From contig CP060236.1 of assembly GCA_023898725.1 (NCBI GenBank), positions 196,920-260,919 on the forward strand: a stretch of 64,000 nt of DNA. Direction: 5' to 3'. Below the pieces are notes generated by a model that did not search any database, was not told where the DNA came from, and was given only the letters and a program-made list of their open reading frames with translations. Shown here piece by piece: positions 15,342-16,766 of this stretch. Source of the stretch: Alphaproteobacteria bacterium. GTDB taxonomy: Bacteria > Pseudomonadota > Alphaproteobacteria > JAUHZC01. The first letter of the stretch is position 1, and each line of letters opens with the position of its first letter. A program made the position numbers and the translations under genes.

Positions 15342-16766
15342 ATGATGCCGTTTTTACTTGTTGCCTTTATCTCTTTAAGCTCTCTGCACGCACCCCTACA
15401 TGCCAGCTGGAAGGTCGCTGCTGAAGAACTCTATCTGGTGGGATCACGCGCAGCGGGAGGATCAACCCGAGCTGTTTTCTGGGCTAAGACCCCACCAAAA
15501 AGTGCAAGAAGCGTTTTAGCTCCTTGGGTGGGCATTGTTCCTGGTCGTGGGTTTGCCACCAAACCCAAAAGAGGCCCAGATAACACCCGCGACAGTATCA
15601 GTGCCTTTCCCCGCGGACGCCAACAGGATTATACAGTCCCAACCTTTGATGCCCCCTTTAAGTTGGTGCTTGCCGACGATGAGGTGCGTCCCTCTTTTTT
15701 GCATGCCTTTGTGCCCGACATCGGGATTGTGGAATCCAAACGCCTGGATGACCACATGAACCCCTTGCAAGAAATGCAAACCTTGCGCACCCTCCTTCAT
15801 CGGGCGGACACCCGTCAAACTGTTGCTGAACTTGACGGTGCCCGTCAGGTTCAGGTTCACTTACAAGATACCCTCGAAGATGAGTTAGCCCTACATCCCC
15901 AAGCCACCCAGTTGTTGCGCCGCATGGTGGCATCGTTTGATGATCTTGTTCATGCTTTTCCAAAGGTCCGGTATAACGGCACCATGGACTTTGTCTGCCA
16001 GTTAGAAACGGGTGAATATGCCTTGATCGAAACGCAAGTCATCCCTCAGGACTATTGGGATGAACGTGCGCTTGCCTATGTGGCCGCCTTTTATGGCAAT
16101 CAACTGCGCCGTGGGGACCATTGGCGTGATCTCAAGAAAGTCATTGGGATTAACATTTTGGCGGGTGTACGCGGGGATCATTGGCGCGACACCCCCGAAC
16201 AATACGTGCGACGATATCGCATGCAAGAACAACTCCATACGCCGCGGCGCTTTATTGATGGGATTGAACTGGTACAGTATTCGCTTGCTAATGCGCCTGC
16301 AGTTGTGGATTCCCGTGAGCAACAAGATTGGCTGACGTTCTTCACGCGTGCCCATCTTATGAGTGCCACTGAAGTTGAGGCAACCATCGCTACCCCCGCT
16401 GTCAAGAGGGCTTTTGAGATGATTCGGATCACTAACCTTCCCGAAGATGTGCACGACGCATATGTTGCTGAAGGTCTTGAGTATGATCGTTTCTCAATCT
16501 ACACGGCTGAAGAACATGCCCGTGGAAAAGAAGAAGGATTAGCGCAAGGAAAAGAAGAAGGATTAGCCCAAGGAAAAGAAGAAGGATTAGCGCAAGGAAG
16601 AGTAGAAGGAAAAGAAGAAGGAGCGCAGGAGAAACTCCGGGAAGTGATGGCACGACTTGCGCGTGCTGGACAAACTCCTGCTGAGATTGCAGCGCTTCTT
16701 GACGAAGACGTAACAACGGTAACCACCATTCTGCATGCAGAAGCAGACTCCAGCAAACGCGTTTAA
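15342..16766 (+). CDS. Rpn/YhgA-like PD-(D/E)XK nuclease, paralog copy 4.
   Basis: A GGAGG (15328..15332) lies 9 nt before ATGATG. The C-terminal region reads KEEGLAQGKEEGLAQGKEEGLAQGRVEGKEEGAQE (3 units plus RVEG). This is the longest allele. Confidence 0.75.
   Translation: MMPFLLVAFISLSSLHAPLHASWKVAAEELYLVGSRAAGGSTRAVFWAKTPPKSARSVLAPWVGIVPGRGFATKPKRGPDNTRDSISAFPRGRQQDYTVPTFDAPFKLVLADDEVRPSFLHAFVPDIGIVESKRLDDHMNPLQEMQTLRTLLHRADTRQTVAELDGARQVQVHLQDTLEDELALHPQATQLLRRMVASFDDLVHAFPKVRYNGTMDFVCQLETGEYALIETQVIPQDYWDERALAYVAAFYGNQLRRGDHWRDLKKVIGINILAGVRGDHWRDTPEQYVRRYRMQEQLHTPRRFIDGIELVQYSLANAPAVVDSREQQDWLTFFTRAHLMSATEVEATIATPAVKRAFEMIRITNLPEDVHDAYVAEGLEYDRFSIYTAEEHARGKEEGLAQGKEEGLAQGKEEGLAQGRVEGKEEGAQEKLREVMARLARAGQTPAEIAALLDEDVTTVTTILHAEADSSKRV
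16524..16631 (+). repeat. 24-bp coding repeat array, copy 4 (3 full units plus a 12-bp RVEG half-unit and a terminal degenerate unit).
   Basis: The repeat GGAAAAGAAGAAGGATTAGCGCAA occurs three times. It is followed by GGAAGAGTAGAA and then GGAAAAGAAGAAGGAGCGCAGGAG. Confidence 0.85.

What the first reader, a model, noticed from the sequence alone, without database searches (positions are those of the whole stretch)
16524..16631. Copy-specific variable-number 24-bp coding repeat (KEEGLAQG) in the C-terminal helix of every Rpn-like paralog
**Observation.** The five otherwise about 99% identical genes each carry a different repeat allele.
- The alleles range from 1 to 3 copies of the 24-bp unit GGAAAAGAAGAAGGATTAGCGCAA (KEEGLAQG).
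- A 12-bp RVEG half-unit is present in copies 1, 4 and 5 and absent in copies 2 and 3.
- The arrays lie at 6628..6687, 8347..8419, 12064..12110, 16524..16631 and 18304..18387.

**Why it matters.** The repeat sits in the G-x3-G helix, which in E. coli Rpn proteins lies in the C-terminal region. That region is reported to be expressed separately as the small RpnS antitoxin, which inhibits the full-length toxin.
- Length variation by slipped-strand mispairing exactly here would diversify the toxin-antitoxin interaction surface among paralogs. This is a plausible specificity or phase-variation mechanism.

**Uniqueness.** Every copy has a unique allele, so the array is not simply five identical duplicates.
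Basis: partly seen in the sequence, partly recalled or inferred. Interest (0 to 1): 0.65.

Follow-up and report, generated by a model that had tools for sequence, protein, structure and literature searches.

The report
Variable helix repeats in Rpn nuclease paralogs
Five almost identical copies of an Rpn-type nuclease gene differ mainly in how many 4-amino-acid units sit in one long helix, which is a new example of a repeat variation described for Rpn toxin-antitoxin proteins in 2023, not a new kind of feature.

Summary
Five intact PD-(D/E)XK (PDDEXK_2 / TIGR01784 "Rpn family") genes are at least 99% identical. Each carries a different in-frame allele: 1, 2 or 3 copies of a 24-bp KEEGLAQG unit, with or without a 12-bp RVEG unit.

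The base period is 12 bp (4 aa, xxxG). AlphaFold2 places the tract inside one 74-residue helix, followed by a small helix-turn-helix-like pair. A profile comparison aligns this region with the crystallised E. coli RpnA-S antitoxin (probability 95%).

Close relatives vary at the same spot from 0 to 17 units. A Rickettsiaceae MAG holds six tandem near-identical paralogs with 9, 7, 5, 4, 11 and 3 perfect GKIE units.

This matches the hypervariable four-amino-acid repeat of Zhong et al. (PNAS 2023), where matched repeat number is needed for RpnS to block RpnL. The accompanying commentary already proposed that repeat variation insulates rpn copies from each other.

Separate expression of an RpnS here is unproven.

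One unexpected point: this subfamily carries Sec-type signal peptides, which does not fit a cytoplasmic toxin-antitoxin pair.

The parts
15342..16766 (+). Paralog c4 (474 aa, NCBI USO01618): signal-peptide-like N-terminus, disordered linker, PD-(D/E)XK nuclease core, long helix, HTH-like end. It carries 3x KEEGLAQG plus RVEG.
   Evidence: GGAGG lies 8 nt upstream of the ATG at 15342.
16524..16631 (+). c4 repeat tract: 3 x 24 bp (GGAAAAGAAGAAGGATTAGCGCAA; the middle unit has GCC), then the 12-bp RVEG unit, then the terminal GKEEGAQE unit. This makes nine consecutive xxxG tetrads.
17110..18522 (+). Paralog c5 (470 aa, USO01619), in direct tandem with c4 (period about 1770 bp).
18304..18387 (+). 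c5 repeat tract: 2 identical 24-bp units (AAG Lys codon variant), then RVEG, then the terminal unit.
6490..7866 (-). Paralog c1 (458 aa, USO01611).
6625..6684 (-). c1 repeat tract: 1 unit (AAG variant), then RVEG, then the terminal unit.
8210..9598 (-). Paralog c2 (462 aa, USO01612), in direct tandem with c1.
8345..8416 (-). c2 repeat tract: 2 units (the second has the GCC variant, as in c4), no RVEG, then the terminal unit.
11926..13290 (-). Paralog c3 (454 aa, USO01616).
12061..12108 (-). c3 repeat tract: 1 unit, no RVEG, then the terminal unit. This is the shortest allele.
11538..11755 (-). Truncated sixth copy: 218 bp, 100% identical to c4 15625..15842 (annotated as the 62-aa USO01615). 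It abuts the downstream flank of c3.
16443..16664 (+). Codons for the single long alpha-helix (c4 residues 368-441) that contains the repeat.
   Evidence: AlphaFold2 model m011119998a52, with pLDDT above 90 in this stretch.
16677..16760 (+). Two short C-terminal helices (residues 446-452 and 457-473), HTH-like. They align with helices 2-3 of RpnA-S.
   Evidence: HTH_23 is sub-threshold.
16404..16421 (+). Candidate internal start (unproven): AAGAGGG, an 8-nt spacer, then ATG (Met360). The predicted product is 115 aa in c4 and 95 aa in c3.
   Evidence: this is the only internal in-frame start with a ribosome-binding-like motif at a workable spacing. It uses the gene's only AGG Arg codon. The motif is not conserved in L004.
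15342..15404 (+). Signal-peptide-like N-terminus MMPFLLVAFISLSSLHAPLHA|SW.
   Evidence: Homologs show clearer Sec-type signals, for example MTKRTLSALILSLSFLPTPMQA|SW.

Best explanation
**What it is.** The tract is the Rpn-family hypervariable four-amino-acid repeat. Here it is organised as a compound 24-bp unit (KEEG plus LAQG) with one diverged 12-bp unit (RVEG). It lies in the long first helix of the C-terminal domain that corresponds to the RpnS antitoxin of E. coli Rpn proteins.

**How the number changes (inferred).**
- Unit number changes in frame by replication slippage or unequal exchange between near-perfect 12/24-bp units.
- Gene conversion also shuffles sequence among the five copies.
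- Each tetrad lengthens the helix by about 6 Angstrom and rotates what follows by about 40 degrees (textbook helix geometry).

**What it does (inferred by analogy).**
- In E. coli RpnC, only C-terminal domains with equal repeat number pair productively.
- By that analogy, each otherwise identical paralog would assemble only with its own-length partners: its own dimer and, if one is made, its own internal-start RpnS-like fragment.
- The five nucleases would then be regulated independently.

**Shown here.** The alleles, their helical location, homology to RpnS, family-wide hypervariability, and a second independent paralog array with all-different repeat numbers.

**Inferred.** The slippage mechanism, length-matched pairing, the existence of an RpnS product, and any defence role.
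For: **In the window**
- c5 equals c1 plus one identical unit carrying the same AAG variant. c2 and c4 share the GCC variant in unit 2. So unit gains or losses happened after the gene duplications.
- Substitutions among the five copies: 0 of 792 nuclease-core sites against 10 of 183 ungapped C-terminal sites (Fisher p=1.5e-7). The informative sites are mutually incompatible, which indicates gene conversion.
- The predicted long helix 368-441 has pLDDT above 90 and is followed by two short helices.

**Link to RpnS**
- The family profile hits 7th0 RpnA-S (E=0.1).
- hhalign gives probability 95% and places the repeat at the N-terminal part of helix 1.

**In relatives**
- In 117 homologs the xxxG run usually starts 10 residues after a conserved Ser, and it ranges from 0 to 14 units.
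- Clusters at 90% identity or more differ by multiples of 4 aa at that site, up to 17 units.
- L002, a Rickettsiaceae MAG, has six tandem PDDEXK_2 paralogs with 0-2 aa differences outside the repeat. They carry 9, 7, 5, 4, 11 and 3 perfect GGTAAAATAGAA units.

**Published support**
- Experiment and structure: PMC10400941.
- Proposal that repeat variation prevents inhibition in trans between copies: PMC10400984.
Against: - No expression data exist for this locus.
- The candidate internal ATG lies 35 residues upstream of the repeat, not 8-20. Its ribosome-binding-like motif is missing in the 78% homolog. The Met is not conserved across the subfamily.
- Pfam DUF4351, the family of stand-alone RpnS proteins, does not match.
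- Foldseek with the C-terminal model did not recover 7th0. It gave only weak HTH, resolvase and Fis matches.
- The neighbourhood is housekeeping and secreted-protein genes, with no PADLOC hits.
- Signal-peptide-like N-termini suggest export, which fits poorly with a cytoplasmic toxin-antitoxin pair.
- Five distinct alleles is weak evidence for selection on its own. Under random draws from six states the chance is about 9%.
- Locus-by-locus assignment of alleles depends on correct assembly of 99%-identical repeats.
Confidence: 0.6

Rival explanations
1. The tract is a neutral mutational hotspot. It is a slippage-prone, length-tolerant low-complexity helix, and copy-specific alleles only reflect a very high indel rate with no functional consequence.
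For: - Family members tolerate anything from 0 to 17 units, and a 49%-identical paralog in the same genome has essentially none.
- The units are perfect or near-perfect tandem DNA repeats.
- C-terminal substitutions are about half synonymous, read from the variable sites.
- All-distinct alleles are not significant in one array, at about 9% under uniform draws.
Against: - In E. coli RpnC, one extra tetrad abolishes cross-inhibition (PMC10400941).
- Two independent arrays, 5 of 5 and 6 of 6, have all-different alleles. The rough joint chance is about 1% even under the most permissive uniform null.
- The tract always sits in the same helix register and the xxxG periodicity is kept.
Confidence: 0.22
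2. The tract is a molecular ruler. Helix length sets the distance and rotation between the nuclease core (or dimer axis) and the C-terminal HTH-like module. Repeat number would then change DNA target spacing or cut position, as the TAEL repeats do in EcoR124I/II.
For: - The long helix links the nuclease core to an HTH-like pair.
- The C-terminal model resembles the long-helix-plus-HTH arrangement of serine recombinases and Fis, though weakly.
- HTH_23 and HTH_20 give sub-threshold hits.
- Zhong et al. themselves draw the EcoR124 analogy.
Against: - All fold and HTH matches are below significance.
- No DNA-binding data exist.
- The published effect of repeat number is on RpnS-RpnL pairing.
- RpnA-S dimerises through this helix.
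Confidence: 0.12
3. The alleles are an assembly artefact. They exist in the population or in the reads but were distributed arbitrarily over collapsed or mis-joined near-identical copies.
For: - The copies are at least 99% identical over more than 1.3 kb.
- An independent short-read (Logan) assembly yields a 1798-bp chimeric contig that looks like a collapsed tandem unit.
Against: - The source contig is 1.1 Mb.
- The flanks of the copies differ and are placed consistently.
- Linked SNP and repeat-variant patterns make sense, with c1/c5 sharing AAG and c2/c4 sharing GCC.
- The 3-unit plus RVEG allele is recovered independently.
- The same phenomenon appears in an unrelated MAG.
Confidence: 0.05
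4. The tract is an on/off phase-variation switch of the contingency-locus type.
For: It is a tandem repeat inside a coding region.
Against: Every length difference is a multiple of 12 bp, and all five reading frames stay open. The same holds in relatives.
Confidence: 0.01

Closest known systems
E. coli Rpn toxin-antitoxin genes-within-genes (RpnA-E, RpnL/RpnS; Zhong et al. PNAS 2023, PMC10400941; structure 7th0)
   Same: - Both have a PD-(D/E)XK nuclease with a variable C-terminal helical domain.
- Both have a 12-bp (4-aa) repeat in the first long helix, varying in number among close relatives.
- Both occur as multi-copy arrays made by duplication, without terminal inverted repeats.
   Different: - These genes belong to the PDDEXK_2 (PF12784) branch, not the E. 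coli Transposase_31 type.
- The unit is a compound 24-bp one.
- No demonstrated internal start exists, and the candidate Met lies further upstream.
- There is a signal-peptide-like N-terminus, a roughly 80-aa linker and an insertion in the nuclease domain.
- The locus is not in a defence island.
- DUF4351 does not match.
Proposal that repeat variation insulates co-resident rpn copies (commentary PMC10400984)
   Same: Mismatched repeat numbers would prevent inhibition in trans between copies.
   Different: The window, and L002, supply concrete natural cases in which near-identical paralogs differ almost only in repeat number. The main text of the 2023 paper does not describe such cases. Its supplement was not checked.
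EcoR124I / EcoR124II HsdS TAEL repeats
   Same: A 4-aa in-frame repeat in a helical spacer, whose number changes specificity.
   Different: There the repeat sets the spacing between DNA half-sites in a type I restriction enzyme. No evidence for that exists here.
FliH/YscL and Yae1/Lto1 GxxxG-repeat helices
   Same: They share a run of xxxG tetrads forming a glycine stripe on one long helix that is used for helix-helix pairing. This gives sub-threshold FliH hits and a Yae1_N hit on the c4 fragment.
   Different: The resemblance is in composition and periodicity only. There is no homology outside the repeat, and the score rises simply with the number of units (28.4 bits in c4 against 12.9 in c3).
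'PDDEXK2 transposase' next to cif genes in Wolbachia, Rickettsia and other endosymbionts (PMC12445526, PMC13439711)
   Same: The same Pfam family, multi-copy in intracellular Alphaproteobacteria.
   Different: - Those papers treat the gene as a mobility factor and report it as monomorphic among cid islands.
- No cif genes were seen next to the array: Pfam scans of ten neighbouring ORFs showed none. The rest of the window was not scanned.
- No inverted repeats flank the unit.
- Repeat variation is not discussed in the passages read.

Membership tests
Rpn family (TIGR01784 / COG5464), PDDEXK_2 branch | PD-(D/E)XK nuclease domain scoring above curated cut-offs | tested here: met
   PF12784 scores 63 bits against 27.4. 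TIGR01784 scores 52.4 against 52.1, which is marginal. NCBI names four of the five copies 'Rpn family' and c4 'PD-(D/E)XK nuclease family transposase'.
Rpn family (TIGR01784 / COG5464), PDDEXK_2 branch | Conserved acidic catalytic core (D ... E-x-Q/K) | tested here: met
   D216 and E230 are invariant and Q232 is at least 90% conserved in 117 homologs, and all are present in all five copies. Equivalence to the mapped RpnA catalytic residues was not tested.
Rpn family (TIGR01784 / COG5464), PDDEXK_2 branch | C-terminal domain homologous to RpnS (sequence or profile level) | tested here: met
   hhalign of the family profile against RpnA-S (7th0) residues 6-47 gives probability 95% and E 3.8e-8. 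hmmsearch against PDB ranks 7th0 second at E=0.1.
Rpn family (TIGR01784 / COG5464), PDDEXK_2 branch | C-terminal three-helix fold like RpnA-S (structure level) | tested here: inconclusive
   AlphaFold2 gives one long helix plus two short helices. Foldseek against PDB returned only weak HTH, resolvase and Fis matches, and 7th0 was not in the top 50.
Rpn family (TIGR01784 / COG5464), PDDEXK_2 branch | Four-amino-acid repeat in helix 1 whose number varies among close relatives | tested here: met
   One search shows six paralogs with 3-11 units.
Rpn family (TIGR01784 / COG5464), PDDEXK_2 branch | Internal translation start giving a separate RpnS, with repeats 8-20 residues after its Met | tested here: inconclusive
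   The only plausible site is the ATG at 16419 with AAGAGGG 8 nt upstream. The repeat starts 35 residues later. The motif is absent in L004, and the Met is not conserved in the subfamily. No internal promoter was found by the consensus scan.
Rpn family (TIGR01784 / COG5464), PDDEXK_2 branch | RpnL is toxic or nucleolytic and is blocked only by the length-matched RpnS | not testable with these tools
   This needs expression and biochemical assays.
Rpn family (TIGR01784 / COG5464), PDDEXK_2 branch | Typical (not defining) association with defence islands | tested here: not met
   The neighbours are valS, a MotA/TolQ-family gene, a lysozyme-like gene, acpS, an exonuclease/phosphatase-family gene, pntA and an MFS transporter. 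The five proteins tested had no PADLOC hits.
DUF4351 (PF14261, stand-alone RpnS-type proteins) | Match to the Pfam model | tested here: not met
   There was no hit at E<=1 for the full-length protein or for the C-terminal fragments.
Insertion sequence / 'PDDEXK2 transposon' | Defined ends with terminal inverted repeats | tested here: not met
   No inverted repeats flank the roughly 1.77-kb unit. The copies are head-to-tail or share flanks of different extents. Target-site duplications were not examined.
Phase-variable contingency locus | Repeat-number change shifts the frame or switches expression on and off | tested here: not met
   All indels are multiples of 12 bp, and all frames are open.
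FliH/YscL or Yae1 GxxxG-repeat proteins | Homology beyond the glycine repeat | tested here: not met
   FliH models score 24-37 bits against cut-offs of 180-293. Yae1_N passes only on the c4 fragment and covers only the repeat.

The most novel reading that the evidence does not exclude
The proteins in this alphaproteobacterial subfamily are exported rather than being cytoplasmic toxins. About half of the 117 closest homologs, including the window copies and the L002 array, begin with a Sec-type signal peptide. Many also have a KRxR-like basic patch just upstream of the nuclease domain. If they reach the periplasm or the host cell, the hypervariable helix would be diversifying an extracytoplasmic nuclease or effector, for instance in partner or immunity-protein choice or in target geometry, rather than an intragenic antitoxin pair. 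Arrays of paralogs that differ only in repeat number would then be a repertoire of secreted variants.
Probability: 0.2. Interest if true: 0.7.

Novelty: new member of a known kind. Interest (0 to 1): 0.33.

Why it matters
The phenomenon and its proposed meaning were published in 2023, so the finding does not open a new category.

Its value is as a clean natural experiment:
- In this genome, and independently in a Rickettsiaceae MAG, nuclease cores are identical while co-resident copies each have a different repeat number.
- The question left open in 2023, what drives the repeat variation, could be tested with a 5x5 cross-inhibition or pairing matrix on proteins that differ in almost nothing else.

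The signal-peptide-bearing architecture, if real, would extend or challenge the cytoplasmic toxin-antitoxin model for part of the Rpn family.

Tried and rejected
- **Single-sequence search of the C-terminal region against PDB:** only noise. A profile was needed.
- **Foldseek of the full-length model:** only weak PD-(D/E)XK restriction-enzyme matches, best E=1.4e-3.
- **Foldseek of the C-terminal model:** weak HTH, resolvase and Fis matches, and no RpnA-S.
- **DUF4351 and PADLOC:** no matches.
- **Independent 'strain' evidence from the Logan contig L003:** rejected. It aligns end to end with the c4 unit, mixes SNPs of several copies, and its length (1798) is about one tandem period plus roughly 28 nt of overlap. 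It is a collapsed unit and shows only that the 3-unit plus RVEG allele exists in the reads.
- **Conservation of the candidate internal ribosome-binding site:** not conserved in L004.
- **Transposon reading:** no terminal inverted repeats.
- **Antisense ORF across the repeat (100-115 aa, very hydrophobic):** rejected as spurious. It is cut by stop codons to 40 aa in c2 and 33 aa in c3.
- **Rfam scan of the array region:** nothing.
- **Search for paralog arrays around P0007 and P0003:** single copies only. P0010 was not retrievable.
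Full report
**1. What is in the sequence**

The window comes from a 1.1-Mb contig of a MAG labelled 'Alphaproteobacteria bacterium'. 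It holds five intact, near-identical genes:
- c1 at 6490..7866(-)
- c2 at 8210..9598(-)
- c3 at 11926..13290(-)
- c4 at 15342..16766(+)
- c5 at 17110..18522(+)

A 218-bp truncated sixth copy lies at 11538..11755(-). c2-c1 and c4-c5 are head-to-tail pairs with a period of about 1.77 kb. c3 and c4 diverge around a membrane-protein gene.

The annotated ATG is preceded by GGAGG at 8 nt.

| Copy | KEEGLAQG units | RVEG |
|---|---|---|
| c1 | 1 | yes |
| c2 | 2 | no |
| c3 | 1 | no |
| c4 | 3 | yes |
| c5 | 2 | yes |

Each tract is followed by GKEEGAQE. The RVEG 12-mer GGAAGAGTAGAA differs by two bases from the GKEE 12-mer. The real period is therefore 12 bp (one xxxG tetrad), and c4 has nine tetrads in a row.

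**2. Pattern of variation among the copies**
- Among the five copies, 0 of 792 nuclease-core positions vary, against 10 of 183 ungapped positions from the repeat to the stop codon (Fisher p=1.5e-7).
- The parsimony-informative sites group (c1,c5), (c3,c5) and (c1,c3). These groupings are mutually incompatible, so the copies exchange sequence by gene conversion.
- Unit-level variants show that the repeat changes are recent and local. c5 is c1 plus one more unit with the same AAG Lys codon. c2 and c4 share a GCC variant in unit 2.
- At least four indel events have occurred in a 24-108 bp tract, while the whole 1.4-kb gene accumulated 14 substitutions.
- All indels are multiples of 12 bp and every frame is open. 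This rules out an on/off phase switch.

**3. What the gene is**
- PF12784 (PDDEXK_2) scores 63 bits against a cut-off of 27.4. TIGR01784 'Rpn family recombination-promoting nuclease/putative transposase' scores 52.4 against 52.1.
- D216, E230 and Q232 of the nuclease core are invariant or nearly so in 117 homologs.
- AlphaFold2 with that alignment gives mean pLDDT 80.6. Residues 1-82 are disordered. A mixed alpha/beta core follows, then a single helix 368-441 with pLDDT above 90 that contains the repeat (G395 to G427). Two short helices at 446-452 and 457-473 end the protein.
- A profile of the family ranks the crystallised E. coli RpnA-S (7th0) second in the PDB at E=0.1.
- hhalign gives probability 95%. 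RpnA-S 'EGEQ-SKALHIAKIMLESG...' aligns to 'QGKE[EGAQ]EKLREVMARLARAG...'.
- The repeat therefore lies in the N-terminal part of the helix that forms the RpnS dimer interface. This is where Zhong et al. place the tetrad insertions.
- Structure-level confirmation failed. Foldseek returned only weak HTH, resolvase and Fis hits. Pfam DUF4351 does not match.

**4. Relatives**
- In 117 homologs, many from Holosporales-, Paracaedibacteraceae- or Rickettsiaceae-labelled MAGs, the xxxG run usually starts 10 residues after a conserved Ser. It ranges from 0 to 14 units.
- Within clusters at 90% identity or more, lengths step by 4 aa at this site. Examples are 1-6 units, 2-17 units and 3-8 units.
- The most telling case is locus L002, from a Rickettsiaceae MAG. 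It holds six tandem PDDEXK_2 paralogs that differ by 0-2 residues outside the repeat. They carry 9, 7, 5, 4, 11 and 3 perfect GGTAAAATAGAA (GKIE) units, all different.
- So 'one repeat number per co-resident copy' recurs independently.
- Under uniform draws the chance of all-distinct alleles is about 9% for the window and about 11% for L002, or roughly 1% jointly. The state spaces were chosen after the fact, so this is suggestive and not proof of selection.

**5. Comparison with what is known**
- Zhong et al. (PNAS 2023, PMC10400941) showed that E. coli rpn genes encode a toxic nuclease (RpnL) and, from an internal start, a small antitoxin (RpnS).
- They showed that a four-amino-acid ('dodecamer') repeat in the first helix varies widely among strains and across phyla.
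- They also showed that one extra tetrad in RpnC abolishes cross-inhibition unless both partners carry it. They noted rpn arrays made by tandem duplication.
The window adds an instance in a different branch (PDDEXK_2) and lineage.

**6. What does not fit the textbook Rpn picture**

(a) An RpnS product is unproven.
- The only internal in-frame start with a ribosome-binding-like motif at a workable spacing is the ATG at 16419. Its AAGAGGG uses the gene's sole AGG codon, and AGG makes up 4.5% of Arg codons in the window.
- That start lies at the boundary between the core and the long helix, but 35 residues before the repeat.
- The motif is absent from a 78% homolog, and the Met is not conserved more widely.

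(b) The neighbours are housekeeping or secreted-protein genes, with no defence hits.

(c) The N-terminus looks like a Sec signal peptide followed by a disordered linker.
- 56 of 117 homologs have a strongly hydrophobic N-terminal segment of the kind found in Sec signal peptides. Examples are MKKLLLTALLGLCLSSNLISSEA|A and MIKIFSTIVFVFILSNSAWS|A.
- Many have a KRxR-type basic patch before the nuclease domain.
- The L002 paralogs also start with one.
- This is inferred from sequence pattern only. No dedicated signal-peptide predictor was available.

(d) The endosymbiont literature calls this Pfam family a 'PDDEXK2 transposase'. I found no terminal inverted repeats, in line with Zhong et al.

**7. 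Verdict**

The identity of the tract as the Rpn hypervariable tetrad repeat is well supported, at about 0.9. The functional reading, length-matched pairing that insulates paralogs, rests on analogy with E. coli RpnC and on the recurrence of all-different arrays, at about 0.5-0.6.

The rivals are neutral slippage, a nuclease-to-HTH ruler, and mis-assembly. Novelty is a new member of a known kind, and interest is modest. The most novel surviving reading is that this subfamily is exported.

Noticed in passing
window 15342..15404 and the equivalent in c1, c2, c3 and c5; homologs P0002-P0119; L002 982..1053: The N-termini look like Sec signal peptides followed by a 40-100 aa low-complexity linker. 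56 of 117 close homologs have a strongly hydrophobic N-terminal segment of the Sec type. Many have a KRxR-like basic patch (for example PAKRARTGQ) just before the nuclease domain. Others lack the hydrophobic segment but start with NLS-like MPPRKRAP or MAPKKRAAP. The Rpn literature I read does not describe this.
   Followed up: partly
L002 982..8918 (Rickettsiaceae MAG CBDBTV010000005.1): Six tandem near-identical PDDEXK_2 paralogs carry 9, 7, 5, 4, 11 and 3 perfect 12-bp GGTAAAATAGAA (GKIE) units. A serine recombinase gene lies at 9138..9728. A seventh, divergent paralog at 9887..11191 has an (A/E)VTK x4 tetrad repeat that lacks glycine.
   Followed up: yes
window 17167..17190 (c5): A 12-bp in-frame tandem duplication CATGCCAGCTGG (HASW HASW) sits exactly at the predicted signal-peptidase site LHA|SW. 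It is absent from the other four copies.
   Followed up: no
window 6457..6479, 8174..8197, 11890..11913, 16779..16802, 18535..18558: An 11-bp unit TATTCTACCCT is repeated twice about 13 nt after the stop codon of every copy. Its function is unknown. No terminator-like hairpin was found there.
   Followed up: no
window 11538..11755 (-): A truncated sixth copy, 100% identical to c4 15625..15842, is annotated as a 62-aa hypothetical protein (USO01615). It is joined directly to the downstream flank of c3.
   Followed up: yes
window 16432..16779 (-), 6477..6779 (+), 18209..18535 (-): An antisense ATG-started ORF of 100-115 aa runs through the repeat. The purine-rich repeat reads as a Leu/Phe-rich hydrophobic stretch. 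Stop codons cut it to 40 aa in c2 and 33 aa in c3, so it is probably not a gene.
   Followed up: yes
window 9717..10562 (-) and 10641..11450 (-): Between c2 and c3 lie two genes whose products start with signal peptides. One is leucine-rich-repeat-like with no Pfam hit. The other is a phage-lysozyme-family protein. The array sits among secreted-protein genes, not defence genes.
   Followed up: partly
c4 residues about 141-205 (window about 15762..15956): The nuclease domain has extra residues between the N-terminal FDAPFK motif and the catalytic strands, compared with the Pfam PDDEXK_2 model. The model match begins only at profile position 56. AlphaFold2 predicts helices and a small hairpin there, and this subfamily conserves it.
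   Followed up: partly
window 15199..15259: A short tandem CCTATC-rich repeat (periods 8, 16 and 21) lies upstream of c4 only. A 46-bp segment upstream of c4 (15175..15220) recurs upstream of c1, c3 and c5 and again downstream of c5.
   Followed up: no
L003 (Logan SRR14234111 contig, 1798 bp): A short-read assembly collapses the array into a single unit-length chimeric contig with the c1-type N-terminus, the c4 repeat allele and the c5-type C-terminus. This is a caution about reading paralog alleles from short-read assemblies.
   Followed up: yes
L005 6384..8426: A contig carrying a 50%-identical homolog also encodes a U-box domain protein, a eukaryote-like domain. This fits an intracellular lifestyle for bacteria that carry this subfamily.
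   Followed up: no
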